Source: a virus (Duplodnaviria > Caudoviricetes). Taken from it: 64,000 nucleotides of DNA. The position numbers were made by a program, and so were the translations under genes. The notes beneath the pieces are model-generated. The model made no database searches. It had not been told where the DNA came from and worked only from the letters and a program-made list of their open reading frames with translations. The DNA is taken from positions 25,758 through 89,757 of IMG/VR virus record IMGVR_UViG_3300033066_000386; one strand, given 5' to 3'. Below are positions 5,847-39,403 of this stretch, in pieces (position 1 is the first letter of the stretch; each line of letters begins with the position of its first letter).

Positions 5847-6713
5847 CTACTCTCCTACTTGAATGGTGATTCCGGCACTCGGCTTTTCCCCGATGGGAGA
5901 GCCAATGTGCTGGTTTTTGTGAACATGTTCCAAGGCTTTATCGGTTGGCCATTCTCCCCACGGATGCTCGTTGGAGAATGGGAAGTGACCCATATGCTTG
6001 AGCTTGACCTTGCGGGTGGCCATTACTTTGCCGCCCATTTTGGCGATCTCCCTTGAGATGTGCCAGTCGCTGGGGGCATGATGGGCCATCCATTTTCCGT
6101 CGTCGTTTCGTGCCACTCGGTCGTAGCCTGCGAAGTTGAGCTTGAGGATGCCGTTTTCGTCAACCTCGTTTCTCCACGCGCGACTAAAATTCATCAGAAT
6201 GCAACTGGTGTTGACCAGCAATCTCCGATCCGGGTAGCCGCAATCGACGTTATCGAAGGTCTCCGGTAGCCTATAGATTTCCTCCATCGTGATCCTACGG
6301 TGGACCAAGAAGGGGTTGTCATGACTGTCAATGGCCGTCGAGGATAGCCCGTTGAAATCCTTGATGGGTGAGACTGCCCCTAACAAGTCGCAATCGGTGC
6401 GGATCATCTCTTCCAAGAGAATGTCGATCCACCCGTTCTCCGGCACTACGTCATTGTGCAAGAGAGCGATATGCGTGATGGGGATATCGTTGGCTTCGAT
6501 GCTGTTAAGAGCCGCAGCCAAGAGGATGTTATGGCTACTAAAGCTGGTCTCGACCTGATCTTGGAATAGCTTGCCGTGCAGCTTGCTATCGGCACGCAAT
6601 GACCCTTGCCAGAATGCGCGGCTAGAGGTTGGATAGGTTTGCCCGTAAGTGCAGTGAAGACTCAGGACTCGAATGTCCTTGTAGGGGTCTTCTGATTCTT
6701 TCTCGTTGTCCAT
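5847..6713 (-). CDS. GT-A fold glycosyltransferase-like protein
   Basis: THIALLHNDVVP (DxD-equivalent), LLVNTSCIL, SDWHISR...GGKV...KLKHMG matches the layout of phage GT2-like enzymes. Confidence 0.65.
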   Translation of the reverse strand: MDNEKESEDPYKDIRVLSLHCTYGQTYPTSSRAFWQGSLRADSKLHGKLFQDQVETSFSSHNILLAAALNSIEANDIPITHIALLHNDVVPENGWIDILLEEMIRTDCDLLGAVSPIKDFNGLSSTAIDSHDNPFLVHRRITMEEIYRLPETFDNVDCGYPDRRLLVNTSCILMNFSRAWRNEVDENGILKLNFAGYDRVARNDDGKWMAHHAPSDWHISREIAKMGGKVMATRKVKLKHMGHFPFSNEHPWGEWPTDKALEHVHKNQHIGSPIGEKPSAGITIQVGE

Positions 6714-14794: not shown

Positions 14795-14795
14795 C

Positions 14796-26961: not shown

Positions 26962-27180
26962 ATGAAAGCCAAACCAACGAAATCTACCGCCAAGAAGAAG
27001 CGGCCTAGCGGATATGCCCAAGCCAAAGCTTCCGGCAAGGTGGTGGTGATGCTCCAGCTCACTCCCGATCAAGCCGCCGTCATCGACCTTGCCGCTACCC
27101 TTGAGGGCAGGTCACGAACCAACTACATCGCCCATCACGCTTACCTAACCGCTTCCCAACACAAGGAGAAGACGACGTAG
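26962..27180 (+). CDS. ribbon-helix-helix-like DNA-binding protein (paralog of 14594..14794)
   Basis: VVMLQLTPDQAAVIDLAATLEGRSRTNY. Confidence 0.6.
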   Translation: MKAKPTKSTAKKKRPSGYAQAKASGKVVVMLQLTPDQAAVIDLAATLEGRSRTNYIAHHAYLTASQHKEKTT

Positions 27181-27212
27181 AAAACTATTTTCCACTTTTT
27201 CTAAAAATCGTG

Positions 27213-27241
27213 TTGCACTTAAACGAATTTAAGCGTATACT
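27213..27241 (+). promoter_or_regulatory. sigma70-type promoter P3
   Basis: TTGCAC-N17-TATACT; upstream tract nearly identical to P2. Confidence 0.72.
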
Positions 27242-27280
27242 AAGTGTGTAGAGACGAGCGACAACCAAACGCAAAGGAGA

Positions 27281-27574
27281 ATGACGATGGCAACCGAACT
27301 GATCACCAGGACGTGCAAATGCCTCGCGTGCGGGCGACGACCCGCCGCAACGACGCCGGAATGGCCGGCGCTTTGTGCATCGTGCCTCGACCGCACCGGC
27401 GAACGCATCAGGCCCGGTGTCCGCGTGATCTGCGAAGTCGATGATGGATGCAGCGGTACGGTCAATCGAATCGAAGATGGCCTGGCGGTTGTGACGACCA
27501 GCGATGGCAAGGAAGCGTGGATACCCATCCCCGAATTGGTTGCCATCACGAAAAGCATGAGATCCAAGTCCTAG
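27281..27574 (+). CDS. zinc-ribbon plus KOW/SH3-like small protein
   Basis: CLAC...CASC then IRPGVRV...GTVNRIEDGLAVV. Confidence 0.55.
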   Translation: MTMATELITRTCKCLACGRRPAATTPEWPALCASCLDRTGERIRPGVRVICEVDDGCSGTVNRIEDGLAVVTTSDGKEAWIPIPELVAITKSMRSKS

Positions 27575-27596
27575 CCCCAACATCGGTACAGCGTCC

Positions 27597-27893
27597 TCAA
27601 TCGCCCAACCATTTTCGGTAGTACGTTTCGGAAGCAGTCGGTTCATCGCCAAATGTCTGGCCTGATTGCTTGAACTGCTTCCACAAAGCTTCTTCCATCG
27701 CTTCCGCAGCATCCAACCAATAGAAGCATCGGTACAAAACCGATGTCCTAATTTCCATCGTTGGTGGTAGGTCAGCCGTGGGTGGGGTGGAGCAGAATTC
27801 ACATCCGCAATCCCCCCGTAGCCCATCGTGCTGGCATGTGGCACACAAGCTCTCCACCAAGTCTTGACCGCAATTCGGGCAATTACCGTTCAT
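27597..27893 (-). CDS. Cys-rich hypothetical protein
   Basis: CPNC, CATC, CGCEFC. Confidence 0.5.
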   Translation of the reverse strand: MNGNCPNCGQDLVESLCATCQHDGLRGDCGCEFCSTPPTADLPPTMEIRTSVLYRCFYWLDAAEAMEEALWKQFKQSGQTFGDEPTASETYYRKWLGD

Positions 27894-28086
27894 TGGATTT
27901 CTCCGGTTCGTACCGTTGGCAAACTCTCACTCGTCGCATCATCACTCTATAGGTGTGGCAGTCATGTGCCTCAAAGAATCTATCGCATAGACCGTTAATG
28001 ACTGATAAATGCAACAACATTCTTCTTGTCTCGATATCATCGCATTCCAACAAATCCATGTAGTTTTGCATGTAGTAATCGAGCAT
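27883..28086 (-). CDS. hypothetical protein
   Basis: Start overlaps upstream stop (TAATG). Confidence 0.5.
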   Translation of the reverse strand: MLDYYMQNYMDLLECDDIETRRMLLHLSVINGLCDRFFEAHDCHTYRVMMRRVRVCQRYEPEKSNER

Positions 28087-29720
28087 TACACTTCCTTCGG
28101 CAATAGGATTTGTTGGTCGTGCTTGCATTCGATTTCGATGACGGCGGGGTCGGTATATTTAAGTACTCGTTCAAGTTCAGATATGTTTTCTCTGGTTAAG
28201 CGACTGTGTATGACAATTCCCATTGCTTCGGCTACGTCTGAAATGTCTGGTATGGCCACATCATCGCCGCTACCTATCCTCCTGCCCTCACAGTATCGGT
28301 CTTGGGTATTACGAATGGACGCATAGCCACCGTTGCTGATGACGATGATCTTGACGTTGAGTTCTAGTCGCGCGAGTACGCTTAGCTCCTGCACGTTGGT
28401 CATGAAGCTACCATCCCCGATAACGGCAACCACCGGCACATTCGGATTGGCCAGGGCTGCTCCGATGGACGCTGGCAATGCCCACCCCATTTGGGCCAAT
28501 GATCCAGGGCAGATGAATCTTCGGTTGCCCATCATCTGCATGACCTGAGGAATGGCGTAGTAGGGCTGCCCGGCATCGTAAAGGATAATGGCGTCTTGGG
28601 ATATCTCGTCGTTCAAAGCGGATAAGGCTTCGTACAGGTCTAGCGGTCCATCTTCGTTGTCTACGATATACTCTTGGCTATGTTGGTGGTAGGCGTCTCC
28701 ACATGCCCTATGCCAATCGCTTCCCTCATGGGTAAATTCCAGCTTGAGCTTAACCAGCTTTCTAAGGAACTCGCCCACGTCGCACTCGAACTTCAAGCCG
28801 CCGTGATCCACCTTGTCCAGTACGGCGCGGTCCGGGTCCACATGGATGATCGTGGCGTTCTTGGGCAGGTACTCGCCATCCCATCCGATGGTTTGGTTGT
28901 GTAGGCTACAGCCCATGACGAGGACCACATCGGCATTCTTGAGCATCCAGTTCGCTGCGGTATGACCCTTCACTCCTGGGTGGCCATAGCTGTATCGGAT
29001 GGCATCTTTGGCGAATTGGGTGGTGATGATCGGGATGGTGCAGGACTCGTCTAGCTGGCGTGCCGCCTCAATCGCTCCAGAACAGCGTATGCCGTGTCCA
29101 AATAGGATCAACGGGCGTCTAGCCTCCTTGAGCAGTTTGGATGCCTGCAAGGGCCATTCTGGATTGATTTTAACCCGTTCTAGGGCCGGATTTAGTGGCT
29201 CTTTAGGAATCGGCAGCTTGTCTTGGCTGATTTCGCTGCTTTGAAAGTCGAGGGGGACTTCCAAATAGACCGGCCCCGGCCTTCCCGACACGCATTCCAT
29301 CCATGAGCCTTCGATGCAGATAATGCCGTGATCCTTGGTGAAGGCCGAGACGATGGGGAACGTATCTACTTCAAGAAACCCCGTTTGTCTCAATCTAGTT
29401 CCATTATTGCAATCCTTGACCTTGCTTTGACCCACGATGTAGATGACGGGGATGGAGTCTTGGTACGCGCTGACGATTCCCGTAATGAGGTTGGGTCCAC
29501 CTGGTCCACCCGTGGCAAGGCATAGGCTGGGTCTGCCCGTTATCCGAGCGTAGGCATCGGCAGCATAGGCTGCGGCTTGCTCATGGTGGAAGCAGGTGTA
29601 CCCCATGCCGCTCTTCTTAACCGCGTCCATCAAGTACATCATCTGCCCACCCGATACCAGGAAGGCGTGGTCAATGCCCTGGGCTTGCAGGAATTGGATG
29701 AGGTAGTCAGCTACGATCAT
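28086..29720 (-). CDS. thiamine-diphosphate-dependent enzyme (acetolactate-synthase fold, YerE-like)
   Basis: MIVADYL...HHEQAAAYAADAYAR...TGGPGGPN...RPGPVYLEVPLD...MGWALPASIGA...GDGSFMTN...NGGY; SD aggag at 29720; frame stays open to 29855. Confidence 0.9.
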   Translation of the reverse strand: MIVADYLIQFLQAQGIDHAFLVSGGQMMYLMDAVKKSGMGYTCFHHEQAAAYAADAYARITGRPSLCLATGGPGGPNLITGIVSAYQDSIPVIYIVGQSKVKDCNNGTRLRQTGFLEVDTFPIVSAFTKDHGIICIEGSWMECVSGRPGPVYLEVPLDFQSSEISQDKLPIPKEPLNPALERVKINPEWPLQASKLLKEARRPLILFGHGIRCSGAIEAARQLDESCTIPIITTQFAKDAIRYSYGHPGVKGHTAANWMLKNADVVLVMGCSLHNQTIGWDGEYLPKNATIIHVDPDRAVLDKVDHGGLKFECDVGEFLRKLVKLKLEFTHEGSDWHRACGDAYHQHSQEYIVDNEDGPLDLYEALSALNDEISQDAIILYDAGQPYYAIPQVMQMMGNRRFICPGSLAQMGWALPASIGAALANPNVPVVAVIGDGSFMTNVQELSVLARLELNVKIIVISNGGYASIRNTQDRYCEGRRIGSGDDVAIPDISDVAEAMGIVIHSRLTRENISELERVLKYTDPAVIEIECKHDQQILLPKEV

Positions 29721-29869
29721 GGTTGCTCCTTTTCGTATTTGAGGGAGAACGCTAGCAACTCTTCGAGCGTGGGGGCCGCGATCTTCGTCATAACGATTGC
29801 CGCACCTCTCACACACGTCATCCTCAAGGTGATATCCACATTCACATGTAAGCATTGAATTACTCCTAG

Positions 29870-30115
29870 CTATCGCACGCTGGACAACGCATTGGATACT
29901 CGAAGCTCCACTTGGTCAACTGCTAACTCAAACGCATGTTCCAACCCGTCTGCCCTATCTCCCATATAGGTCTGCCATCTCCATCCGTAATCCTTCTCAC
30001 CCACCCCTTCCGTGAAGTACACGTCTGCAACCTTACGGACCAATCCGCGCACCTTTGGGCCGAAGTTCCATGTGTCGTCACCGATGTATTGCCACTCCAT
30101 TTCGTCAATGCTCAT
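29870..30115 (-). CDS. hypothetical protein
   Basis: 81-aa ORF with SD aggag. Confidence 0.55.
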   Translation of the reverse strand: MSIDEMEWQYIGDDTWNFGPKVRGLVRKVADVYFTEGVGEKDYGWRWQTYMGDRADGLEHAFELAVDQVELRVSNALSSVR

Positions 30116-30123
30116 GGTTGCTC

Positions 30124-30351
30124 CTAGCAGCGAATAATCGGATTGTTGTCGGAATGGATTTTGTTCAGCGCGTCCTGCATTTCCTTATCCCCAAACGAGG
30201 GATCAATCTCGTGCTTGAACACCAGATCGAGATGCTTCCTAATCATCGTTGTTGCCTCTGGGTCAATGCCTTCGTCCAAGATGCTGCCCCTTCCCTTACC
30301 GCTAATCTCAAAATACCCTTGTAACCAGTAACAGAAATCTCGACTTGTCAT
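30124..30351 (-). CDS. conserved phage hypothetical protein
   Basis: MTSRDFCYWLQGYFEI...IRKHLDLVF, a familiar phage small-protein pattern. Confidence 0.65.
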   Translation of the reverse strand: MTSRDFCYWLQGYFEISGKGRGSILDEGIDPEATTMIRKHLDLVFKHEIDPSFGDKEMQDALNKIHSDNNPIIRC

Positions 30352-30518
30352 GACGTTCTCCCATAAAAGTGAAAGCGGGTTCCGTGGCTTCGATTGCTAC
30401 ACCCGCCACATAGCACGGTCTGTGGGTTGGGGCCTTGTTATCGGCCTGCTTGCGTGGGAACTGGCGAAGACGTAGGCCACGCAAGCCCCGGAGAGCCACG
30501 GCTGCTCCTATGAAACTC

Positions 30519-31376
30519 CTACGTCTTCCTGAGTCCTTCGAGTACGTAATAGTTCATGGTCCGCTTGAGGGCATCTTCGAGCGGAATGGTGGGCTCGTAA
30601 TTACCAAGAATGAAGTCCTTTTCTGGTTCATCGTCTCCGAGAACCACGTTGTCCGTTAGTAGTCGCGCGACCCTGACTAGGCTAACAGCATCGAGACTTC
30701 CTAGTTCACACAACAGATTCTCTACAGTTGCTCGCAACAATTCAATTACCATATCGCAAGCGTGGAGATAACCCCTAACGGTGTTGGGAGAGCGTACCAA
30801 GACCGGCTCACCGGCAAGGGCTTGCTTGATGAAGTTGCCCACCGCGAATCGCTCTAGGTCCATCATGGGGCCGACGAAGCTGTAACCACGAACAATGCTG
30901 GCTTCCAATCCGTCTTCTTCACACGCTCGGTGCAACATCGTTTCACATAGACGCTTGGTCTCGGCTATCACCCTGCGCGAATCGTTCCACCCATAATCCA
31001 TGTGGACCGCTTGGCTGGAGGTGAATAACAGCTTCTTTACGCCTTGCACCTTGCAGAATTCCAAGACACGTTCCATGCCCACAATGTTGTTGGCGATGCT
31101 CTTGTGGTCGTAGGCAAAGTGCATGACGTAATCGTGGCCGTCAGCATGGTCCAAGCCCAATAGCGGGTCCAAGTTCTGAATTCGGTAAGCGTCGTGGTAG
31201 CTCCAGAACGTGGTGATGCCTAGCAATTCATCCGCGCGATCCAACGTCATCGTCATCCACCTACCAAAGAACCCAGCGGCTCCCGTGATGAAGATGCGTT
31301 TGCCGTCAAGCTGCCTCAGATACGGCTCCGCATGCTTGACGATGTGGTCCAAGTCGGCTTGTAGTTGTGGGTTCAT
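30519..31376 (-). CDS. NAD-dependent epimerase/dehydratase/reductase (extended SDR)
   Basis: KRIFITGAAGFFG, LLFTSS, AETKRLCE, RGYSFVGP, RGYLHACD; start refined to MNPQLQ. Confidence 0.85.
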   Translation of the reverse strand: MNPQLQADLDHIVKHAEPYLRQLDGKRIFITGAAGFFGRWMTMTLDRADELLGITTFWSYHDAYRIQNLDPLLGLDHADGHDYVMHFAYDHKSIANNIVGMERVLEFCKVQGVKKLLFTSSQAVHMDYGWNDSRRVIAETKRLCETMLHRACEEDGLEASIVRGYSFVGPMMDLERFAVGNFIKQALAGEPVLVRSPNTVRGYLHACDMVIELLRATVENLLCELGSLDAVSLVRVARLLTDNVVLGDDEPEKDFILGNYEPTIPLEDALKRTMNYYVLEGLRKT

Positions 31377-31524
31377 CGCATGATCCTTTCGATGATAGCA
31401 GAGGCGGCGAATGGAATTAGGGTGCAGACAAATCCGATGATCGACCCCACCACCATCCCTGTTCGCCAAGCCCTACCGTAAGCCCTGATCTCCCCTTCGG
31501 TCTTGTAGTCGTCTATGTCGAAAA

Positions 31525-31716
31525 TCATTCCTTGCCTCCCAGCCCTGCGGCTTTACAGACTTCCTCAACCGCTTGATCCAATACGTCGATCTTATCCTCA
31601 GCCTTCCTCAAGCGGTGATAGAGGAAGGGGACAATGGAGGCCAATGCGACCGCGGCCACGGACAGGCACGCACACACAATGCCAAGACACACGCAGACCG
31701 TTTCTAGAGTATTCAC
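31525..31716 (-). CDS. small single-TM membrane protein
   Basis: Long hydrophobic N-terminal helix then coiled coil. Confidence 0.5.
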   Translation of the reverse strand: MNTLETVCVCLGIVCACLSVAAVALASIVPFLYHRLRKAEDKIDVLDQAVEEVCKAAGLGGKE

Positions 31717-31907
31717 TCGGTTACTCCGTTGTCTTGGTAGGTCGTCGCAACGAACTGTGCGTGCGAATCGTCTATGGCCAGTTCTTCCTCGTAGCAGTCG
31801 TTACAGATTGGCTCATAAAGGTCAGCAGGATGCCCAGGGAAGTTGTCTGAAGCAACCTTTATTGGGAATGACTTCTCACACTTCCAGCACACGAATTCTC
31901 CGCTCAT
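31713..31907 (-). CDS. small zinc-finger protein
   Basis: CWKC...CNDC; overlaps neighbours. Confidence 0.5.
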   Translation of the reverse strand: MSGEFVCWKCEKSFPIKVASDNFPGHPADLYEPICNDCYEEELAIDDSHAQFVATTYQDNGVTE

Positions 31908-32101
31908 TTCGCACCACCTTTCTCCACCAGCTTGGGGGGCTGTTCCTGGCCGTTGGCAATTTCATGAGTGAGTGAGTCGATGTACTTGAGCAATTCGCCC
32001 ACATGCTCGGCGTAGGTTTGGTTGCTGGCGGCATTGTAGCCCAGGCTTGCTTCCGCATGCCGCTTACGAATCACTTCCAATCGTTCCTTAGTCATCATCA
32101 T
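31904..32101 (-). CDS. hypothetical protein
   Basis: 65-aa ORF, coupled overlaps. Confidence 0.5.
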   Translation of the reverse strand: MMMTKERLEVIRKRHAEASLGYNAASNQTYAEHVGELLKYIDSLTHEIANGQEQPPKLVEKGGAK

Positions 32102-32609
32102 TCTCCCTTGGTTGCATTAAACCATTTCGTTTCTTGTTGGGACCGAATCCTAGACGCCTTCGACGGGCGGCAAAGCTGGGGGGCTTGATTCCCAACTCGG
32201 ATGCGGCTTCCTTGTCCGTGTATCCGGCGTCCATCAGTCGTATCGTTTGTTCTCGCACTTCCCAATCCACATTCTTGACGTACCAGTCTTCGTCGCCTAC
32301 CTTGCAATTGGGCTTTAATCCGCGCGCCTTGCGCCATTGGCGGATGTTGCTGGACGTGCATCCGATTCTATCCGCAATGTCCCGATCCGATAGACCTGAA
32401 CCATAAAGCTCTTGCCCCATCTCGGACAGCTTCCGGCTATGGCGGAACGTGGGTATCGCCGGTATCCCCCGCTTGGCCCTCCATTGCTGGACCAACCATT
32501 TCGTGCAACCCACCTTTTGGGCAATGACGGAATCACGCAGCCCCATCTCGACCATGCCCCTACCGATCTGGTCTAGTACCTTGGTTGCCCCGGTATGTAT
32601 GTGCGACAT
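32088..32609 (-). CDS. DNA-binding protein with three tandem HTH repeats
   Basis: LRDSVIAQKVGC..WR, LSDRDIADRIGC..WR, YTDKEAASELGI..RR. Confidence 0.65.
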   Translation of the reverse strand: MSHIHTGATKVLDQIGRGMVEMGLRDSVIAQKVGCTKWLVQQWRAKRGIPAIPTFRHSRKLSEMGQELYGSGLSDRDIADRIGCTSSNIRQWRKARGLKPNCKVGDEDWYVKNVDWEVREQTIRLMDAGYTDKEAASELGIKPPSFAARRRRLGFGPNKKRNGLMQPRENDDD

Positions 32610-32619
32610 GAACCCTCCG

Positions 32620-32883
32620 TCATTTCTTTTTCAAGTGCTTTCCCGCAATGATCGTTTCCAGGTGTTCCACACGCACCCGTAACTCCGATAACTCGTCTTC
32701 CAAGGTAAGCTGCTCGCCACCACCCCCACCTTCCCCGTCGTCTTCGTCCTCATCTGGTGGTCCAAGGCCAATGATTACATCCACGAGGGCTTCTACGTGA
32801 TCGGTGGTTAGCTGATCCGTCTCGACCATTTGAGAGAAGGAACCCCTGTCAGGACGATTGCTAACGCTATGGTACTTAAACAT
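32620..32883 (-). CDS. hypothetical protein
   Basis: 87-aa ORF with acidic/Gly linker. Confidence 0.5.
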   Translation of the reverse strand: MFKYHSVSNRPDRGSFSQMVETDQLTTDHVEALVDVIIGLGPPDEDEDDGEGGGGGEQLTLEDELSELRVRVEHLETIIAGKHLKKK

Positions 32884-33251
32884 GCTGCCCCTCCCTCATC
32901 CGTAGTTTCTTCCGTGCCTCTCGATACGCCACTTGCTGTTGAGCGACGGTGAACCTTTTCTTGAACGTCAACCTGCTATGGATGACCGCCGTCTCATAGT
33001 TGACCATGATTTCCCAATTCTTCCGCGCGGATTCCACGATGGCATCGCGTAGCACATCGATTGCCTTCATGTACTCTTCCGGTGTATCCATCATCCTTGC
33101 ACCCCCCTTTCTTTCTTGGGCTTCGGGCTGCCCTTGCCGCACATCGAATGCTTCAACCCATCTCGGTACTTGGAATTGGATTGAGAGCATTTCTTGCAAA
33201 CGCGCTGCCCGTCGAATTGTTGAGGCTTTTCCTCTCGGCACTTAAGGCAAA

Positions 33252-33539
33252 TCATGTCATCACTCCGTGACCAGGGTTCTTCAAATCCCCTCCATCCAAT
33301 GCCAGCCCCTCTTTGGCCAGCTTGGATAGACGCTTGATGGCATATTCCATTTGTAGGGCTTCCGACTTGCTCTCGCATTTTAGCATCCATACCAGCGATA
33401 CGGGCAGTCTTGATCGGGTGTATTTGGCCCCCTTGCCGCTATTGTGTTTCTTCTCGCGCGAGTACACATCATTGGACACGCCGCAATAGAGGCTGCCATC
33501 GGAGCATCGCAAGATGTAAGTGTGCCACGTTAGTACCAT
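33252..33539 (-). CDS. GIY-YIG nuclease (UPF0213/YhbQ-like)
   Basis: YILRCSDGSLYCG...HNSGKGAKYTRSRLPV...EALQMEYAIKRL. Confidence 0.88.
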   Translation of the reverse strand: MVLTWHTYILRCSDGSLYCGVSNDVYSREKKHNSGKGAKYTRSRLPVSLVWMLKCESKSEALQMEYAIKRLSKLAKEGLALDGGDLKNPGHGVMT

Positions 33540-33772
33540 GTCGGAACGCTCGGCTGGGTCAGGACGTTGAACCGCTTCTGAACGGCTGCCATGACCCTAT
33601 CGTAGACCCAATCCGGTAGCTGCTCGGTTGGCGTTGTGAGGATGATGTCTTTCGGTATCTCGGCTAGGAATGTCATCCTATCCGCCGTCCCAAGCAGCTT
33701 CCGTGCCCGCATCATGAGGATGAAGGCATTGGGTTCCTTGAGGTCCGTGATGTCGATTTGCTTACGCTCCAC
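33530..33772 (-). CDS. hypothetical protein
   Basis: 80-aa ORF in operon. Confidence 0.5.
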   Translation of the reverse strand: MERKQIDITDLKEPNAFILMMRARKLLGTADRMTFLAEIPKDIILTTPTEQLPDWVYDRVMAAVQKRFNVLTQPSVPTWY

Positions 33773-33976
33773 TAGTAATCCTCCAATTTAGTTAGTCGCA
33801 CCCGTTGTCCGACATGCCGTCAATCCAATTTGTTTCGATGACCTGCCTCTTCTCTTCTACGGCGTCAATAGCCCATTGGCATCCTTTGAGAGCGAATGCC
33901 AACATCCACTCGTCTCCGGTTGGGTAATAGGTGGAACCGTCTTTACAGACTATACCTGGGCGTATTGGCTCTAACA

Positions 33977-34207
33977 TCAGTAATCCTCCGTTAGAAACTC
34001 CACGTCTTTGCACCACACGCACTCGAACTTGGTTTCGACCCGAATCTTGCCATCCTTGGTGTATCGCCCATGCCCCTTGTAGGCGTAGCTCCCACCGCAA
34101 TAGGAATGTCTACAGGGCTTGCCGTGGCCCTTGTCATGGAGTCGGTCGATGAACTCCGATAGCCCCGGCTTGGCTGGCGTTACCTTCCGTGTCGGTTTCA
34201 TGGTCAA
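33977..34207 (-). CDS. hypothetical Cys-containing protein
   Basis: 76-aa ORF, CVWC. Confidence 0.45.
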   Translation of the reverse strand: MTMKPTRKVTPAKPGLSEFIDRLHDKGHGKPCRHSYCGGSYAYKGHGRYTKDGKIRVETKFECVWCKDVEFLTEDY

Positions 34208-34443
34208 CCCTTGTCTATCTGCTCGGCAAATTCCATAGCGGCTTTAACGGTATTAAACCTCTTATGCCACGGTGTGCCGTTGCTCTTTTTGTGTACGTTG
34301 GAAATCAGTAGTGCCGCCGATCCTCGACGTAAAATCTCAAATTTCCCATCTTCCGAATCGTACCCTGCGATTGCATTATCTTTACGAATCCACAATCGGA
34401 AATCGCTACCCAAGGTAATGTGTTTAGGAAATGCCGGTCTCAT
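34204..34443 (-). CDS. hypothetical protein
   Basis: Start overlaps rfbH stop (ATGA). Confidence 0.5.
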   Translation of the reverse strand: MRPAFPKHITLGSDFRLWIRKDNAIAGYDSEDGKFEILRRGSAALLISNVHKKSNGTPWHKRFNTVKAAMEFAEQIDKG

Positions 34444-35765
34444 CGCTCCACCACCTTTTCGTGAAAAATCTCTAGAACGTAATCCAGCATAGCAGTCGTT
34501 AGCCCCGGCCAACAACCTACCCAGAATGTATTGTGCATCACATAATCAGTGTTGGCAAGTTGGCCCACCACTCGCTTCTCCACGTCCTTGTAGGCCGGTT
34601 GCTTGGTGAGATTGCCCCCGAATAACAATCGGGTCTGGATGCCATGATCGTTTAACTTGGCTACTACGTAGTTGCGATTAAAGAATGCAGAGGATGTTGG
34701 ACGTATCGACAAGGCGAACCCGAACCATGAGGGGTTGCTGTTGGGTGTAGGCTCCGGCAGGATGAAGTATTCTTCCAAGTCTTTGAGGCCATCGTAGAGG
34801 TACTTCCAGTTGAATCTGCGCGATTCGATGAACGACGGCAGCTTCTTGAGTTGAGCCAACCCCAAGGCGGCTTGCATCTCGGTTGCTTTCAAGTTGTAGC
34901 CAATCTCCGAGAAGGCGTACTTATGATCCCATCCATCCGGCAATTCGCCTAGCACGCTCTTGGGCTGATTGAACCGCTTACCACAAGAGTTGTCCACCCC
35001 TGGCGGACACCAGCAAGAACGCCCCCAGTCCCGTAGCGAGTTGACGATAGAGTTTAGCTTGGCGTTGCTCGTCACCACCATGCCTCCCTCGCCGGTTGTC
35101 ATGTGGTGGGCTGGATAGAAGCTGTAGGTGGAAAAATGACCGGCCACGCCCACATGGTCGCCAATTATCTCATCCCCATACCTTGAGCCTAGCGCGTCGC
35201 ACGAATCTTCGATCAGGTAGAGGTCGTGCTTGTGAACGAACTCGTAGACTTCCGTCATGTTGAAGGGGTTGCCCAGCGTATGGGCGATCATAACCGCGCG
35301 GGTCTTGTCGCTCCTTGCGGCTTCCAACTGGGTCACGTCGATGTTGTAGGTCGGCAAGGTCACGTCCACGAATACAGGAACTAAACCATTCTGAATGATC
35401 GGGTTGACCGTGGTGGGGAACCCTGCGGCTACGGTGATTACCTCATCCACCTTCCTGAGAGGGTTGTCCAATCGCTTCGAGGTGAGGGCGGTGAGGGCTA
35501 GTAGATTCGCACTACTCCCGCTATTGGCGAAGGATGCGAACCGTTGCTCCACCGTATCCGCAAATGCCTTCTCGAATGCCGGTACACGATGCCCACCCGT
35601 TAGGTCGAAGTCCAGGGCGGATTCCACCAAGGCCACCATCTCCTCATGATCGTAGACCTTGCCGCTCACGGGGACTTTGTTCTTGCCTGGGATGAACGGC
35701 GTGGGCTTGTGGAACAAGTCGCAATATCGCTTGACGGAATCGAGAATGGAGGCTTTGTCGTTCAC
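34440..35765 (-). CDS. rfbH: CDP-4-keto-6-deoxy-D-glucose 3-dehydrase (E1), PLP/PMP-dependent
   Basis: VPVSGKVY...NSGSSANLLAL...AHTLGNPF...EDSCDALGS...SFYPAHHMTTGEGG (His in place of Schiff-base Lys), RDWGRSCWCPPG...C Cys motif. Confidence 0.92.
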   Translation of the reverse strand: MNDKASILDSVKRYCDLFHKPTPFIPGKNKVPVSGKVYDHEEMVALVESALDFDLTGGHRVPAFEKAFADTVEQRFASFANSGSSANLLALTALTSKRLDNPLRKVDEVITVAAGFPTTVNPIIQNGLVPVFVDVTLPTYNIDVTQLEAARSDKTRAVMIAHTLGNPFNMTEVYEFVHKHDLYLIEDSCDALGSRYGDEIIGDHVGVAGHFSTYSFYPAHHMTTGEGGMVVTSNAKLNSIVNSLRDWGRSCWCPPGVDNSCGKRFNQPKSVLGELPDGWDHKYAFSEIGYNLKATEMQAALGLAQLKKLPSFIESRRFNWKYLYDGLKDLEEYFILPEPTPNSNPSWFGFALSIRPTSSAFFNRNYVVAKLNDHGIQTRLLFGGNLTKQPAYKDVEKRVVGQLANTDYVMHNTFWVGCWPGLTTAMLDYVLEIFHEKVVER

Positions 35766-36073
35766 TTTGATAACTCCGCGTTGAGCATATCGGTCAGGTC
35801 GGAAAGGAATAGGTTCATGCAGACGGATTTACAGGGGTCTTTTTCGGACAAGCTGTAATGATTAAAGACAACCATTTCGAGCGGTCTTAGATTAAAGTAT
35901 CTTTGAGACACCTCCCTAATCATCTCCACCGTTAGTAGTCGCTTGGGCTTGTCATCCCGTTTGTACTCGTGCGACTCCAACTCGCTTAGCCGATCATTCA
36001 CTTCGGCCAACGTATCGTAGCCAACCTCCCGTGTCATATCCCCTAGCGTCTCACGAACGTAATACCTACTCAT
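35762..36073 (-). CDS. hypothetical protein
   Basis: Start refined to MSRYYVRE. Confidence 0.5.
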   Translation of the reverse strand: MSRYYVRETLGDMTREVGYDTLAEVNDRLSELESHEYKRDDKPKRLLTVEMIREVSQRYFNLRPLEMVVFNHYSLSEKDPCKSVCMNLFLSDLTDMLNAELSK

Positions 36074-36440
36074 GGCGTTGCTCCTTCGGCCACCCCGACC
36101 ACGACTCTCCGTGCATGGGATGGAACATTGATAAAGCATCCAGTATTGAGTTTATTTTTTGAGACAGTTCCCATGACCACGAACTACTACCAACGTTCCT
36201 AGTTAGGTCAGCTATTAACTGAATGGCTTCCTGATGCTTCTCTAAGATACAATCACGGTTAGCCTCAATTAAGCCAGCCATAGGATCGTACCTAGCGGAT
36301 AACTCCTTTTCCAATTCATCAATCACTGCTGCCCTACGAAGCAACTGCCTGCTTAAGATGCGTAGATCATCATCAGGATCACAATTAGGCTCGTTGAGTA
36401 ATTTGTTGGCCAGCACTATAGAGTCAGATTTCTCGCTCAC
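36066..36440 (-). CDS. hypothetical protein
   Basis: GTG start overlapping rfbG-like stop; visibly AT-richer. Confidence 0.5.
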   Translation of the reverse strand: MSEKSDSIVLANKLLNEPNCDPDDDLRILSRQLLRRAAVIDELEKELSARYDPMAGLIEANRDCILEKHQEAIQLIADLTRNVGSSSWSWELSQKINSILDALSMFHPMHGESWSGWPKEQRHE

Positions 36441-37390
36441 GGCTTGTTCTCCCCAAAGTATTTGCGATACCACTTAACCGTCTCTTTCAACCCATCCGCT
36501 AGCGTCCAATTGGGAACCCAGCCCAGCTTGGCACGGGCTTTTTGAGAGGAGAGATGCTGGGCCTGAATCTCGTTCGTGGCCTCGTTGCGGATATCGATTT
36601 TACAATACCTAGCGTCGGACATGAACAAGCCATGCATCTCAGCTAGAACGTTGACCACCATTTCTTTAGCGTCAATCGGCTCATCGTTGCTGAAGTTGAA
36701 TGCCTCACCGTTCTGCACCATGCCGAATGCCAGGCCCTCCGCTAAAGCAATGTAGGCGTTGACGGCATCCTCTACGTAGAAGTAGTCGCGGATTGGTGTA
36801 CCATCGCTACGAATAACGGGATTCTGACCTTGGAGTACACTACGAATGGTCCCTGGTACGATACGGTTCCAGTTGAGGTCCCCTCCCCCGTAGATATTAC
36901 CCATGCGTGCAATGGCAATGGGGAGGTCATAGGTTTTGGCGTAGCACTGGGAGATGAGGTCGGCACAGGCTTTGGAGCAATCATAGGGGTAGAGTCCTCG
37001 TAAGGGCGTGTTCTCGGTGTAGGGCAGGATGGGGGATTCGCCATACGCCTTGTCGGACGACACGGTAATTATCTGCTCAACTTTTCCGTGTCTTCGGCAG
37101 GCGTCGAGAACGTTCACCGTTCCCATTACGTTGGTGTCCATTGTCGATTTTGGATTTTTGATTGCCTCACCTACCTGCGACTGCGCGGCCAAATGAAAGA
37201 CTGTCTTGCTAATTTCGGTCAAGCGGTAAACGGCTTGGAGGATCGTTACGTCCATCTCTTCGTGGAGGCACAAATCAAGTCTCCAAACGAATGCCCCCAT
37301 CTCCTCCAGCTTCCTTACCAGCCATGATCCAACGAATCCGCTGGAGCCGGTGACGAGGACGGATCGATCTTTCCAGAATTCGGGTTTCAT
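36437..37390 (-). CDS. rfbG: CDP-glucose 4,6-dehydratase-like SDR
   Basis: FWKDRSVLVTGSSGFVGSWL, HLAAQ, SSDKAYG, YDCSK, ARMGNIYGGGDLNWNRIVP. Confidence 0.8.
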   Translation of the reverse strand: MKPEFWKDRSVLVTGSSGFVGSWLVRKLEEMGAFVWRLDLCLHEEMDVTILQAVYRLTEISKTVFHLAAQSQVGEAIKNPKSTMDTNVMGTVNVLDACRRHGKVEQIITVSSDKAYGESPILPYTENTPLRGLYPYDCSKACADLISQCYAKTYDLPIAIARMGNIYGGGDLNWNRIVPGTIRSVLQGQNPVIRSDGTPIRDYFYVEDAVNAYIALAEGLAFGMVQNGEAFNFSNDEPIDAKEMVVNVLAEMHGLFMSDARYCKIDIRNEATNEIQAQHLSSQKARAKLGWVPNWTLADGLKETVKWYRKYFGENKP

Positions 37391-37436
37391 TGCTTTGCTC
37401 CAATCGAGTTAGGCTCGCGCGAGTAAATACGGGTAA

Positions 37437-37679
37437 TTACCCCTCCACTTTCTTCATCGGGCAAGATGGATGATGCCCGCAAGCGCCTGGGTCATTGCTG
37501 GCCCCGCAATCACACTTCGGGGAGTTGTCGTCTACCGGCTGTAACGCTTCTCTGGCAAGCTTCAAAGCATCGTAGAGAACGTCGTGGTCATTGCTTGTCA
37601 GCATGTAGCCGATGGTCCAATCTAGCTGAACCAACCTCTCACAAGCTTGCTGACACAAATCCAAGTTTACTTTATCCAC
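37437..37679 (-). CDS. hypothetical protein with C-terminal Cys motif
   Basis: GTG start within end of rfbF; CDCG...HHPSC. Confidence 0.45.
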   Translation of the reverse strand: MDKVNLDLCQQACERLVQLDWTIGYMLTSNDHDVLYDALKLAREALQPVDDNSPKCDCGASNDPGACGHHPSCPMKKVEG

Positions 37680-38464
37680 GGTGCATTCCCTTCCTTCCAC
37701 ATTTGGTTGAGTTCTGCCAAATCCTTCGAGGTATCGCACGATGCGAAGAACCCCTTGTGACGATACGCCATGAGGTCGCTCGTCTCGGCCATGTCCTTGA
37801 GAGTGTCTTCGAGTGGACCCTTGCTTAATCGATCCAGGATGCCCCTATTGAACACGAAGAACCCCGCATTGACCCATTCATCGGTTTGGGGCTTTTCCTT
37901 GAAGGAGAGGACCGTATCGGCAGCTAGGATGTAGCCTTGGGCATCGGTATAGGTTCGGTCGTTGATGTCCAAGACCCCGTACTTGGATCGGGGCTGGACG
38001 GCTACCAGGGTTGCCATGCGTCCGTGAGTGCGATGGAAATCCACCACCTCTTGAATGTCCACATTGGATAGTCCATCCCCGTAGGTGCAAAGGAAGGTGG
38101 GTTCGGTGATGTAGTCGCGCAGTCTTAACAGCCTCTCACCCGTTTGGGATTCCATGCCGGTGTCCACCATCGTGACCTTGAACGAGTCCTTTTCGTCCAT
38201 TGGGTCGCCGTGGTACTTCATGGCCCCGATGTTGGAGATGGTGTAAGGATGCTGCATCATCGGGTACTCGAAGAAATAGCGCTTTATCATATCGCCCTTG
38301 TAGCCCAAGGCCATGATGAAGTGGCGGTAGGATCTAAGCATGTACCCTTCCATAATGTGCTTGATGATGGGCTTGTTGCCGATCTCGACCATGCATTTGG
38401 GCTTGTATTCCGTCTCCTCCCTCATCCTAGTCCCTAGGCCACCACATAGAATTACCGTTTTCAC
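37667..38464 (-). CDS. rfbF: glucose-1-phosphate cytidylyltransferase
   Basis: VKTVILCGGLGTRMREETEYKPKCMVEIG...LGYKGDMIKRYF...VDTG..SQTGERL...TYGDGLSN...NAGFFV...YRHKGFF. Confidence 0.92.
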   Translation of the reverse strand: MKTVILCGGLGTRMREETEYKPKCMVEIGNKPIIKHIMEGYMLRSYRHFIMALGYKGDMIKRYFFEYPMMQHPYTISNIGAMKYHGDPMDEKDSFKVTMVDTGMESQTGERLLRLRDYITEPTFLCTYGDGLSNVDIQEVVDFHRTHGRMATLVAVQPRSKYGVLDINDRTYTDAQGYILAADTVLSFKEKPQTDEWVNAGFFVFNRGILDRLSKGPLEDTLKDMAETSDLMAYRHKGFFASCDTSKDLAELNQMWKEGNAPWIK

Positions 38465-38661
38465 TGCCTGCTCCTCTTGTTGAATTCCATTGCCAATCGA
38501 TTCAATTCTAGCACGCACTCATGCCAGTCCTCGACCATGATTTGCTTGAACCGCATGCCGATGGGCAATGATGGGCGGCAATCGTGAGCGGACTGCCACA
38601 TGTCGCTGGCACACCTCACACAGTTGTCAATCGTCTTGGAATCCACTTGAACGAAGATCAT
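38461..38661 (-). CDS. hypothetical protein
   Basis: 66-aa ORF coupled to rfbF (GTGA). Confidence 0.45.
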   Translation of the reverse strand: MIFVQVDSKTIDNCVRCASDMWQSAHDCRPSLPIGMRFKQIMVEDWHECVLELNRLAMEFNKRSRQ

Positions 38662-39038: not shown

Positions 39039-39403
39039 GACTTCTCCTTGAGCTTGATCCCTAGTGCCCTGCACAGACGCCGCACATCTCCACGGGTCGG
39101 ATTGTCCTTGACGACGGATGTTCCGATTGTCAAGCACGGAGCAAGATTGCCACACGCAGGACACCATGCCAAATCTAGCCCAGACTTAGACGCCAGCAGC
39201 AATGCGTATCTCTTCCAGGGGCAAGGCGGCAGGTGCGGCCCAAACATTGCTTCCAACCATTCTTCTGTTACAGGCTCACCGTCATCTAAGAGGTGTTCGG
39301 CTAGATGCTCCTTCGCCAACATCACGCCAGCGTTGTCGTACCGATTGCTAATGCTATTTTTGGACATGAGCAGCTTAGCCGCCGCTCTCAATTCTTCGCT
39401 CAT
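39035..39403 (-). CDS. hypothetical protein
   Basis: NPTRGDVRRLCRALGI C-terminus; coupled overlaps. Confidence 0.55.
   Translation of the reverse strand: MSEELRAAAKLLMSKNSISNRYDNAGVMLAKEHLAEHLLDDGEPVTEEWLEAMFGPHLPPCPWKRYALLLASKSGLDLAWCPACGNLAPCLTIGTSVVKDNPTRGDVRRLCRALGIKLKEKS

What the first reader, a model, noticed from the sequence alone, without database searches (positions are those of the whole stretch)
28086..38464. Phage-encoded CDP-dideoxy/branched-sugar pathway dispersed among small phage genes
Seen: rfbF (37667), rfbG-like (36437), rfbH with PAHH (34440), an SDR (30519) and a ThDP enzyme (28086), all co-oriented over about 10 kb. They are interleaved with about 20 phage micro-ORFs, often translationally coupled to them, and two carry the phage palindrome internally. 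Established: RfbF, RfbG and E1 (with reductase E3) make CDP-4-keto-3,6-dideoxyglucose; YerE (ThDP) adds a two-carbon branch and YerF reduces it to CDP-yersiniose. No E3, flippase or O-antigen polymerase is visible, but a GT sits in the head operon. Inference: the phage makes its own rare sugar to glycosylate virions or DNA; I know of no described tailed-phage pathway of this type.
Basis: partly seen in the sequence, partly recalled or inferred. Interest (0 to 1): 0.86.

Follow-up and report, generated by a model that had tools for sequence, protein, structure and literature searches.

The report
Phage pathway for branched dideoxy-sugar
An uncultured 90-kb wastewater phage carries intact genes to build, from glucose-1-phosphate, a rare carbon-branched 3,6-dideoxy sugar so far known only from bacterial surface glycans, plus a glycosyltransferase next to its capsid genes, which suggests (unproven) that the phage sugar-coats its own particle.

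Summary
Five intact, co-oriented genes lie where stated: RfbF, RfbG, RfbH/E1, an extended SDR and a ThDP enzyme. Twenty small ORFs sit between them, many with 4-nt start/stop overlaps.

The ThDP enzyme is not an acetolactate synthase. It falls in a fully supported clade of sugar-branching YerE/ErwE/JanthE-type enzymes whose cellular members sit beside rfbFGH, never beside ilvH. The phage gene order matches those bacterial clusters. The contig is not a chimera: the phage palindrome lies inside two of the genes, and independent metagenomes bridge the junctions.

- No E3 reductase, flippase or polymerase is present.
- The SDR lacks the canonical catalytic tyrosine.
- The nearest bacterial clusters are erwiniose-type (with aldolases the phage lacks), so the branch length is open.
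- The "GT in the head operon" is real by fold (GT-A, Z 16). Homologues occupy the same slot in related phages, and 16 viral records carrying one show no rfbH, so its link to this sugar is unproven.

YerE-like plus E1-like cassettes occur on many IMG/VR phage contigs, but I found none in deposited phage genomes or the searched literature. This scan has already noted similar cassettes in several other phage genomes.

The parts
37667..38464 (-). rfbF/ddhA-like glucose-1-phosphate cytidylyltransferase (265 aa from the GTG at 38464)
   Evidence: TIGR02623 E 1.5e-73, 247 bits, below the 300-bit cut-off. PDB 1tzf 3e-56 over residues 2-263, GGLGTR motif present. The start overlaps the upstream stop by 4 nt.
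36437..37390 (-). rfbG/ddhB-like CDP-glucose 4,6-dehydratase (317 aa, short form)
   Evidence: TIGR02622 is the best family, 217 bits, below the 278-bit cut-off. PDB 1wvg 1.6e-41; the SSDK and YxxxK (YDCSK) motifs are aligned; about 20 aa are deleted after the Rossmann beta2 strand. 50-53% identical to the RfbG of YerE-type clusters L082 and L088.
34440..35765 (-). rfbH/ddhC (E1), PMP- and [2Fe-2S]-dependent CDP-4-keto-6-deoxyglucose 3-dehydrase
   Evidence: NF011936 644 bits, above the 423-bit cut-off. PDB 3bcx 7e-144. The alignment shows FYPAHH (His in place of the PLP lysine), C-x-C-x7-C, and the Cys aligned with the second Cys of the Yersinia CC pair. 4-nt overlaps at both ends.
30519..31376 (-). 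Extended SDR of the type found in YerE-type clusters (285 aa). It lacks the canonical catalytic Tyr.
   Evidence: Pfam Epimerase. Phage-lineage relatives are 41-87% identical. TGxxGFxG, SS and K are conserved, but the Tyr of YxxxK is I/V/L. It lies in a 98*-supported clade with SDRs of YerE-type clusters, sister to the gene that follows rfbH in those clusters.
28086..29855 (-). YerE/ErwE/JanthE-like ThDP-dependent sugar C-branching enzyme. The core starts about aa 45; the first ATG adds a 45-aa Cys-rich extension.
   Evidence: TPP_enzyme_N/M/C domains. All AHAS models score far below their cut-offs. Catalytic Glu and GDGS...N are invariant. It lies in a 100*-supported clade with rfbH-linked enzymes and apart from ilvH-linked AHAS.
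27597..38661 (-). Operon-like run of 25 co-oriented ORFs: the 5 enzymes plus 20 small ORFs, including an HTH protein (32088-32609) and a GIY-YIG protein (33252-33539)
   Evidence: Gene model and junction overlaps. Among the small ORFs scanned only GIY-YIG got a Pfam family; the HTH protein was scanned. Relatives in other metagenomes keep the enzymes but delete or swap the small ORFs.
28368..28375 (.). Phage palindrome core TCGCGCGA inside the ThDP gene
30663..30670 (.). Phage palindrome core TCGCGCGA inside the SDR gene
5847..6713 (-). GT-A-fold glycosyltransferase-like gene in the head module, between the capsid genes and the head-tail adaptor. It is the candidate consumer of the sugar.
   Evidence: No Pfam hit itself; 6 of 43 homologues hit PF00535 weakly. 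AF2 pLDDT 91. VIA Z 16.1 to the STIV A197 glycosyltransferase, and nearly all of the top 50 are GT-A-fold entries, mostly catalytic glycosyltransferases. It occupies the same slot in related phages. The sister phage has it at 64% identity.

Best explanation
The five genes are a working, phage-resident cassette for a CDP-activated, C-4 acyl-branched 3,6-dideoxyhexose.

Proposed steps:
1. RfbF makes CDP-glucose from glucose-1-phosphate and CTP.
2. RfbG makes CDP-4-keto-6-deoxyglucose.
3. E1 (RfbH) removes the 3-OH. Electrons come from a host reductase, because the phage has no E3.
4. The YerE-like ThDP enzyme adds an acyl carbanion from a host 2-oxo acid to C-4. Pyruvate (a C2 branch, yersiniose-like) is the simplest donor, because the phage lacks the aldolases that build longer donors.
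5. The SDR probably tailors or reduces the product.

The cassette was most likely taken once from a bacterial surface-polysaccharide cluster with the same gene order (rfbF-rfbG-rfbH-SDR-ThDP) and later colonised by phage micro-ORFs.

What is shown: family membership, intactness, clade, synteny and phage residence. What is inferred: the chemistry of each step, the donor and the reductase source. The acceptor is unknown. The best candidate is virion (capsid-module) protein, through the GT-A enzyme encoded beside the capsid genes; I put about 0.35 on that sub-claim.

ThDP tree:
- A 100*-supported clade with stem length 0.58 holds the phage enzyme and every rfbH-linked cellular enzyme. These include three that lie next to ddhABC in Enterobacteriaceae and a relative of JanthE (E 1.5e-110). 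The clade contains no ilvH-linked AHAS and does not contain E. coli IlvI. PDB 8rph is JanthE according to PMC12188165.

Gene order:
- L082 has rfbF, rfbG, rfbH, SDR, aldolase and ThDP in the phage's transcription order.

SDR:
- It groups with SDRs of YerE-type clusters.

Phage residence:
- GC content is uniform.
- The phage palindrome lies inside two of the genes.
- Contigs from runs of other studies bridge enzyme/micro-ORF junctions.
- A sister phage on an 89,794-bp contig carries ThDP (55% identity), SDR (47%) and GT (64%).

Constraint:
- Six to nine relatives are 69-89% identical over the full length.

GT:
- It has a GT-A fold and keeps a conserved position in the head module.
Against: - No E3 is encoded, yet the E1 is of the iron-sulfur type that needs an electron donor.
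- The SDR lacks the Tyr of YxxxK throughout the phage lineage, so it may not be a conventional ketoreductase.
- RfbF and RfbG score below their NCBIfam equivalog cut-offs.
- The nearest cellular clusters all carry donor-building aldolases that the phage lacks. According to PMC9306805, ErwE refuses pyruvate. A pyruvate donor is therefore an assumption.
- Sixteen viral records carrying a homologue of the GT show no rfbH. No GT lies inside the cassette.
- There is no direct evidence of expression or of any sugar product.
Confidence: 0.7

Rival explanations
1. Host-envelope use. The cassette is an auxiliary metabolic module that feeds the CDP-sugar into the host's own O-antigen, capsule or glycoprotein machinery during infection. 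Possible purposes are blocking superinfection or stopping progeny from sticking to debris. The host's transferases would do the attachment.
For: The cassette derives from bacterial surface-polysaccharide clusters that contain Wza and GT2 genes. No transferase lies inside the cassette. rfbH/ddhC-type genes are listed as viral AMGs in surveys (PMC10653327). Sixteen viral records carrying a homologue of the head GT show no rfbH.
Against: No flippase, polymerase, GtrA/B-like or lipid-carrier GT family appeared in the Pfam scans of the phage. The host would need a matching transferase. The genes lie between the replication/terminase genes and the head genes of what looks like a lytic 90-kb genome. 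The host is unknown, so none of this is tested.
Confidence: 0.25
2. DNA hypermodification. The CDP-sugar is the donor for glycosylating a modified base in phage DNA, as NDP-arabinose is in RB69 and DLP3.
For: There is precedent for a phage-encoded NDP-sugar route that feeds DNA glycosylation (bioRxiv 10.1101/2025.06.16.659550). This phage invests heavily in DNA modification: a Mom-family gene and three N6/N4 methyltransferases.
Against: The Pfam scans listed no thymidylate-synthase-like hydroxymethylase, TET/JBP oxygenase or DNA-GT family. The only GT-like gene keeps a conserved head-module position next to the capsid genes in related phages. Mom chemistry does not use sugars (my own knowledge).
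Confidence: 0.07
3. Truncated or re-purposed pathway. Without E3 and with a Tyr-less SDR, the cassette does not reach a 3,6-dideoxy product. The ThDP enzyme might instead branch CDP-4-keto-6-deoxyglucose, or the SDR might be a non-catalytic partner.
For: E3 is absent. The Tyr of YxxxK is replaced in the whole phage lineage. Characterised YerE-like enzymes accept many ketones (PMC12247030).
Against: E1 keeps all its cofactor motifs and is the best-conserved gene, at 644 bits. In three of the four cellular YerE-type clusters checked, no E3-like gene was seen on the cluster's contig, although contig numbers could not be mapped with certainty; Pedobacter has one next to rfbF. From memory, SpnQ (a related 3-dehydrase) works with general cellular reductases. 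The SDR is conserved with ThDP in the sister phage.
Confidence: 0.12
4. Artefact or unrelated genes. The ThDP enzyme is a true acetolactate synthase AMG, or the region is host LPS DNA mis-assembled into a phage contig.
For: Source annotations call the homologues 'acetolactate synthase large subunit'. AMG surveys file viral ilvB under amino-acid metabolism (PMC8226683).
Against: All AHAS equivalog models score 190-290 bits against cut-offs of 500-1080. The tree places the enzyme apart from every ilvH-linked AHAS. The Pfam scans listed no AHAS small-subunit family. The genes are interleaved and translationally coupled with phage ORFs and carry the phage palindrome. Independent runs from other studies bridge the junctions.
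Confidence: 0.02

Closest known systems
CDP-yersiniose A pathway of Yersinia pseudotuberculosis (DdhA/RfbF, DdhB/RfbG, DdhC/E1, DdhD/E3, YerE, YerF), as summarised in PMC9306805 and PMC12247030
   Same: The enzyme families are the same and in the same logical order: cytidylyltransferase, 4,6-dehydratase, iron-sulfur PMP 3-dehydrase, ThDP C-4 branching enzyme, SDR. An unnamed enterobacterial locus (L179) shows the rfbF-rfbG-rfbH-ThDP-SDR layout, and its ThDP enzyme is in the same clade.
   Different: There is no E3. The phage ThDP enzyme is only about 26% identical to that enterobacterial type. The SDR belongs to another sub-group and lacks the catalytic Tyr. The genes are spread over 10 kb among phage micro-ORFs. 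The context is a virus, not an O-antigen cluster, and no flippase or polymerase is present.
Erwiniose-type clusters (ErwE/ErwF/ErwI/ErwJ of Pectobacterium atrosepticum, PMC9306805) and JanthE of Janthinobacterium (PDB 8rph, PMC12188165)
   Same: These are the nearest cellular relatives of the phage ThDP enzyme by tree and identity (38-40%). Gene order rfbF-rfbG-rfbH-SDR-(aldolase)-ThDP is shared.
   Different: Those clusters carry an HpcH-type aldolase, an acetaldehyde dehydrogenase and a DmpG-type aldolase to build long hydroxylated donors, plus a second SDR and GT2 genes. The phage has none of these. The phage enzyme has the canonical GDG motif, not JanthE's CDG.
Virion glycosylation in mycobacteriophages (Freeman et al. 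2023, PMC10527164, as cited in PMC12619734)
   Same: A phage-encoded glycosyltransferase sits in or next to the structural genes. Glycans on capsid and tail-tube subunits are the known outcome in that system.
   Different: As far as I know, those phages use host sugar donors and carry no nucleotide-sugar pathway. Here glycosylation of the virion is only inferred, and the GT belongs to a different, Pfam-invisible GT-A family.
Phage-encoded NDP-arabinose synthesis for DNA hypermodification in RB69 and DLP3 (bioRxiv 10.1101/2025.06.16.659550)
   Same: A tailed phage encodes its own nucleotide-sugar biosynthesis to supply a phage-encoded transferase.
   Different: The sugar chemistry is different. 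In that system the target is a 5-hydroxycytosine base made by a thymidylate-synthase homologue, and no such homologue appeared in the Pfam scans here.
Biosynthetic acetolactate synthase (IlvB/IlvI/IlvG with a small subunit)
   Same: It shares the three-domain ThDP fold and has comparable PDB E-values (6lpi 2.7e-65 against JanthE 1.7e-62).
   Different: It lies in a separate clade. No small subunit was found. Scores are far below every AHAS equivalog cut-off. The phage gene is linked to rfbFGH rather than ilv genes.

Membership tests
YerE-like sugar-branching ThDP enzymes | Three ThDP-enzyme domains with the catalytic Glu and the GDG...N cofactor motif | tested here: met
   PF02776, PF00205 and PF02775 all match. 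E92, G480-D481-G482-S483 and N508 are invariant in the alignment.
YerE-like sugar-branching ThDP enzymes | Phylogenetic placement with ddh/rfbH-linked enzymes and apart from ilvH-linked AHAS | tested here: met
   The clade is 100*-supported in FastTree (176 rows) and in IQ-TREE quick (83 rows). It includes three enterobacterial ddh-linked enzymes and a JanthE relative.
YerE-like sugar-branching ThDP enzymes | Genomic linkage to genes that make CDP-4-keto-3,6-dideoxyglucose | tested here: met
   The gene is co-oriented in the same run with rfbF, rfbG and rfbH, in the same order as in L082.
YerE-like sugar-branching ThDP enzymes | Carboligation of a 2-oxo acid onto the C-4 ketone of the CDP-sugar | not testable with these tools
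   This needs an enzyme assay.
E1 / RfbH / DdhC 3-dehydrase | Equivalog-level sequence match | tested here: met
   NF011936 scores 644 bits against a cut-off of 423. PDB 3bcx gives 7e-144.
E1 / RfbH / DdhC 3-dehydrase | His in place of the PLP lysine, and Cys ligands for the [2Fe-2S] cluster | tested here: met
   The alignment to 3bcx shows FYPAHH, C-x-C-x7-C and the upstream Cys. Which residues are the ligands is recalled from the literature, not tested here.
Complete yersiniose/ascarylose-type 3-deoxygenation system | A dedicated E3 (DdhD/AscD) reductase with Fer2 and FNR-like domains | tested here: not met
   No PF00111 or PF00175 match at E<=1 in the whole genome. None appeared in the Pfam scans of all ORFs.
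CDP-glucose 4,6-dehydratase (RfbG/DdhB) | NCBIfam equivalog cut-off | tested here: not met
   TIGR02622 scores 216.9 bits against a cut-off of 278.45. It is still the best-scoring family.
CDP-glucose 4,6-dehydratase (RfbG/DdhB) | Catalytic Ser/Thr-Asp-Lys and YxxxK motifs, and a Rossmann motif | tested here: met
   Alignment to 1wvg shows TGSSGFVG, SSDK and YDCSK.
Glucose-1-phosphate cytidylyltransferase (RfbF/DdhA) | NCBIfam equivalog cut-off | tested here: not met
   TIGR02623 scores 247.4 bits against a cut-off of 300.25. The next family scores 72 bits.
Glucose-1-phosphate cytidylyltransferase (RfbF/DdhA) | Full-length similarity to the solved enzyme, with the GGxGTR motif | tested here: met
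   PDB 1tzf gives 3e-56 over residues 2-263; GGLGTR is present.
YerF/ErwF-type SDRs of branched-sugar clusters | Clade membership with SDRs encoded in YerE-type clusters | tested here: met
   A 98*-supported clade holds the phage-lineage SDRs and all three cluster SDR groups, apart from RfbG and abe/prt-like SDRs. The nearest group is the gene that follows rfbH (support 91).
YerF/ErwF-type SDRs of branched-sugar clusters | Canonical SDR catalytic triad Ser-Tyr-Lys | tested here: not met
   Ser and Lys are kept. The Tyr is replaced by I/V/L in all ten phage-lineage sequences, and that position aligns to the Tyr of the UXS YDEGK motif.
GT-A glycosyltransferases (ORF 5847-6713) | GT-A fold | tested here: met
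   AF2 pLDDT 91. Foldseek 4e-7 and VIA Z 16.1 (rmsd 2.8 A, 173 aligned residues) to STIV A197; nearly all of the top 50 are GT-A-fold entries, mostly catalytic glycosyltransferases. The BFVD top hits are phage GT-A proteins.
GT-A glycosyltransferases (ORF 5847-6713) | DxD metal/nucleotide-sugar motif and a Pfam family match | tested here: inconclusive
   The protein has no Pfam hit, and 6 of 43 homologues hit PF00535 weakly. The family has an invariant H-x-D (HND here) plus invariant D216 (preceded by nearly invariant E215) and invariant H240, rather than a classic DxD. Some top structural hits are non-catalytic GT-like domains.

The most novel reading that the evidence does not exclude
The phage makes a carbon-branched 3,6-dideoxyhexose de novo and attaches it to its own capsid-module proteins through a widespread, Pfam-invisible GT-A family that sits beside the major capsid gene in many phage lineages. 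This would be the first virus shown to supply a branched-chain sugar for its own virion glycan. It would also imply that capsid glycosylation is common well outside the actinobacteriophages.
Probability: 0.3. Interest if true: 0.8.

Novelty: new variant of a known kind. Interest (0 to 1): 0.62.

Why it matters
Branched 3,6-dideoxyhexoses (yersiniose, erwiniose, caryophyllose) are known only as components of bacterial surface glycans. Their ThDP branching enzymes are also sought-after biocatalysts for making tertiary alcohols.

A complete phage genome, and many other IMG/VR phage contigs, carry this chemistry. That opens three points:
- It gives a new reservoir of YerE-like enzymes.
- Viral 'ilvB/acetolactate synthase' AMGs in surveys may be mis-filed sugar-branching enzymes.
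- It poses a concrete question: what does a lytic phage glycosylate with such a sugar?

If the answer is the capsid, this bears on phage immune recognition, stability and therapy design.

Tried and rejected
- **Megablast of the region against deposited phages.** No match.
- **tblastn of ThDP against deposited phages.** Hits were only short, unannotated or bacterial-looking records and annotated ilvB genes. The one deposited megaphage checked, which has an rfbH-like gene, has no ThDP gene within 12 kb.
- **Close relatives in IMG/VR.** Single-protein queries for ThDP and for the GT found none.
- **GT2, GT1, Fer2 and NAD_binding_1 family searches of the phage.** Nothing found.
- **Link between the GT and the cassette.** No GT homologue lies within 10 kb of the other viral YerE-like loci. 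None of 16 viral records carrying a GT homologue shows an rfbH match. A required GT-cassette link therefore has no support.
- **Pfam and PHROG scans of the small ORFs and of unknown neighbours.** Only GIY-YIG matched; no ferredoxin or rubredoxin that could replace E3.
- **Profile search of the GT family against PDB sequences.** Nothing found.
- **Expression evidence.** Contigs from two wastewater RNA libraries cover most of the region at 90-95% identity. Contigs cannot show transcription, so I do not count this as expression evidence.
- **Cluster look-ups.** They gave no organism names for the nearest ThDP homologues.
- **Host.** No tRNA genes in the window and no host assignment.
- **Not attempted.** I did not run complex prediction, because no binding claim is made.

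Full report
**Setting.** The window is bases 25758-89757 of an 89,757-bp IMG/VR virus record that CheckV rates as complete. It is a tailed phage.
- It has two capsid-family genes, a portal fused to NUDIX cargo, a Mu-F-like protein, a head-tail adaptor, split terminase domains and a family A DNA polymerase.
- Nearly all genes are on the minus strand.
- GC content is even, 0.49-0.56, across the window.

**The observation.**
- RfbH/E1 (34440-35765) passes the NCBIfam equivalog cut-off: 644 bits against 423.
  - It aligns end to end with the Yersinia E1 structure 3bcx (7e-144).
  - It keeps the FYPAHH histidine and the C-x-C-x7-C cysteines.
- RfbF (start at the GTG at 38464) matches TIGR02623 (E 1.5e-73) and PDB 1tzf over its full length, with GGLGTR present.
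- RfbG (36437-37390) matches TIGR02622 best and keeps SSDK and YxxxK. It has a roughly 20-aa deletion after the Rossmann beta2 strand.
- Both RfbF and RfbG score below their curated cut-offs.
- The ThDP protein (28086-29855) has all three TPP domains.
- The SDR (30519-31469, probably starting at the ATG at 31376) is an extended SDR.
- Twenty other small ORFs lie between 27597 and 38661. Nine junctions in the whole chain are 4-nt start/stop overlaps, including the starts of RfbF, RfbH and the SDR, and most starts have a Shine-Dalgarno-like sequence upstream.
- The palindrome core TCGCGCGA lies inside the ThDP gene (28368) and the SDR gene (30663).

**Is the ThDP enzyme an acetolactate synthase?** No.
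- Every AHAS equivalog model scores 190-290 bits against cut-offs of 500-1080.
- By raw similarity to solved structures it is equidistant from E. coli AHAS I, JanthE (8rph) and the 'acetolactate synthase II' entry 5ahk, which from memory is the PpYerE structure. I therefore built trees.
- I collected 80 cellular loci and 80 IMG/VR loci that encode relatives. I labelled each by what lies within 10 kb: rfbH/rfbF, or an ilvH-like small subunit.
- In a FastTree of 176 sequences and an IQ-TREE of 83, one clade (support 100, stem 0.58) holds the following:
  - the phage enzyme;
  - every rfbH-linked cellular enzyme;
  - about 50 viral enzymes;
  - three enzymes found immediately downstream of ddhA-B-C in unnamed Enterobacteriaceae genomes.
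- All ilvH-linked enzymes and E. coli IlvI fall outside this clade.
- The Janthinobacterium member of the clade (L082) hits the characterised YerE-like enzyme JanthE at 1.5e-110. PDB 8rph is JanthE according to PMC12188165.
- The phage has no AHAS small subunit in the Pfam scans.

**Origin and architecture.**
- In L082 the order is rfbF, rfbG, rfbH, SDR, HpcH-type aldolase, ThDP, acetaldehyde dehydrogenase, DmpG-type aldolase, second SDR and GT2 genes, next to a Wza-like exporter. This is the erwiniose-type layout described in PMC9306805.
- The phage transcribes rfbF, rfbG, rfbH, SDR and ThDP in that same order.
- Its RfbG is the same short type as in L082, L084 and L088 (46-53% identity; 26-31% in the other clusters where an RfbG match was seen).
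- The simplest history is one capture of a bacterial cassette, followed by insertion of phage micro-ORFs between the genes.
- Contigs from relatives in two wastewater RNA libraries keep ThDP, SDR and RfbH at 90-95% identity. They delete or replace exactly the small ORFs, with joints at 27893/28093, 29782/30015, 30127/30370, 31376/31525, 32112/32615 and 33773/33979. Near-identical contigs from a 2017 wastewater DNA run bridge enzyme/micro-ORF junctions.
- This rules out an assembly chimera. It also shows that the enzymes are the conserved backbone and the micro-ORFs are the variable part.
- A more distant sister phage, on an 89,794-bp contig, carries ThDP (55% identity), SDR (47%) and the head-module GT (64%).

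**Gaps in the pathway.**
- *No E3.* No Fer2 or FNR-type domain was found in the genome, yet the E1 is of the iron-sulfur type.
  - Among four cellular YerE-type clusters checked, Pedobacter has an FNR-like ORF just upstream of rfbF.
  - In the other three I saw none on the cluster's contig, although I could not map contig numbers with certainty.
  - A host reductase is therefore the likely electron source; this is an inference.
- *No donor-building genes.* All seven of the closest cellular clusters carry the two aldolases and the dehydrogenase. The phage has none.
  - The donor must therefore be a host 2-oxo acid. Pyruvate is the obvious one.
  - However, the nearest characterised relatives prefer or tolerate longer donors (PMC9306805, PMC12247030). 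The branch length is open.
- *An atypical SDR.* It keeps the TGxxGFxG, SS and Lys motifs.
  - The Tyr of YxxxK is I, V or L in all ten phage-lineage sequences and in a few cellular homologues. That position aligns to the catalytic Tyr of UDP-glucuronate decarboxylase.
  - In a tree, the phage-lineage SDRs lie inside a 98-supported clade made only of SDRs from YerE-type clusters. They are nearest to the gene that follows rfbH, not to the ErwF-position or YerF-position genes.
  - Its role as the side-chain reductase is therefore plausible but not secure.

**The transferase.**
- No Pfam GT family matches any ORF of 85 aa or more.
- ORF 5847-6713 lies between the capsid genes and the head-tail adaptor. 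It belongs to a large family: 1466 representatives at E<=0.001.
  - Its nearest ESM Atlas clusters are mostly viral.
  - Only 6 of 43 members reach a weak PF00535 hit.
- Its AlphaFold model (pLDDT 91) matches GT-A glycosyltransferases.
  - The best match is STIV A197, at Z 16.1, rmsd 2.8 A, 173 aligned residues.
  - Further matches include Mimivirus R699, COLGALT1, TarP, RmlT and SpsA.
  - The top hits in BFVD are phage GT-A proteins.
  - Some top hits are non-catalytic GT-like domains, but the family has invariant H-x-D, D216 (preceded by nearly invariant E215) and H240.
- In related phages (capsid proteins 40-60% identical) the homologue sits in the same slot, capsid-capsid-small ORF-GT-small ORF-adaptor. 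In more distant phages it lies just after the capsid gene.
- This argues for a role tied to the head.
- However, 16 viral records carrying a homologue, three of them at least 90% complete, show no rfbH match. The GT therefore does not depend on this sugar, and the link between the two is a hypothesis.

**How common, and is it known?**
- Of 142 IMG/VR stretches that encode a relative of the ThDP enzyme, 80 loci were kept, and most of those have an E1-like gene within 10 kb.
- Some of these records are clearly phages.
  - Three have T4-type terminase domains.
  - One complete 75-kb genome with terminal repeats has DNA polymerase, gp32-like and RecA-like genes flanking a larger sugar island.
- In 50,697 deposited phage records I found no YerE-like gene beside an rfbH-like gene, within what I checked.
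- Literature searches found no phage-encoded yersiniose or YerE-like pathway.
- AMG surveys do list viral rfbH/ddhC, and viral 'ilvB' filed under amino-acid metabolism. Some of these are probably such enzymes.
- This scan has already noted comparable cassettes in several other phage genomes. This instance is therefore one more member of a recurring and, as far as I could find, unpublished viral theme.

**Verdict.** This is a real, intact, phage-resident cassette for a CDP-linked, C-4-branched 3,6-dideoxyhexose.
- It is derived from bacterial surface-glycan clusters and stripped of E3 and the donor-building genes.
- The product's side chain, the SDR's role and above all the acceptor remain open.
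- Virion glycosylation through the head-module GT-A enzyme is the most attractive reading. It is not the only one.

Noticed in passing
window 29721-29855 (-): The first ATG of the ThDP gene has a strong AGGAG upstream and adds a 45-aa Cys-rich (CxC...CxxC) N-terminal extension. Relatives are 543-552 aa and lack it, and a relative's contig skips 29783-30014. It may be a micro-ORF fused in frame.
   Followed up: partly
window 7311-10521: Two capsid-family genes (7311-8417 and 9109-10521, both matching Pfam Phage_capsid and phrog_10) are separated by a plus-strand Endonuclease VII ORF (8435-9112). Related phages have the two capsid genes adjacent.
   Followed up: partly
window 55549-56235 (-): A Mom-family gene (PF25680, 2e-35) lies in the replication module. 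Three N6/N4 DNA methyltransferase genes and a UDG-superfamily gene occur elsewhere in the genome. The virion DNA is probably modified, independently of the sugar cassette.
   Followed up: partly
window 33252-33539 (-): A small GIY-YIG protein gene sits inside the cassette and itself contains a palindrome core (33454). It could be a mobile element that contributes to the micro-ORF turnover.
   Followed up: no
window 27597-34207 (-), several small ORFs: Several micro-ORFs encode proteins with four or more Cys in CxxC pairs, like zinc ribbons (27597-27893, 31713-31907, 33091-33390, 33977-34201). None matched rubredoxin or ferredoxin families, so nothing supports a role as electron carriers for E1.
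   Followed up: partly
L002 (IMG/VR record of 75,397 bp with terminal repeats), 7300-17700: A complete phage genome has a larger sugar island: E1-like, 4,6-dehydratase-like, YerE-like ThDP, NeuB-like, SDR, dehydroquinate-synthase-like, FGGY kinase and a DegT aminotransferase. It lies next to DNA polymerase, gp32-like and RecA-like genes.
   Followed up: partly
P0133, P0134 (cellular homologues of the SDR): Some cellular members of the SDR family found in YerE-type clusters also have Leu in place of the YxxxK tyrosine. The Tyr-less state is therefore not confined to phages.
   Followed up: no
window 39400-40215 (-): A 271-aa protein just upstream of the cassette has a C-terminal cluster of CxxC motifs, with weak DnaJ-CXXCXGXG and anti-termination-Q-like hits. 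It may be a regulator of the downstream run.
   Followed up: no
window 26443-27180 (+): A short plus-strand island, including a SprT-like metalloprotease ORF (26443-26952), interrupts the otherwise minus-strand genome between the cassette and the portal gene. The 219-aa minus-strand ORF at 27185-27844, which lies beside the island, looks non-coding.
   Followed up: no
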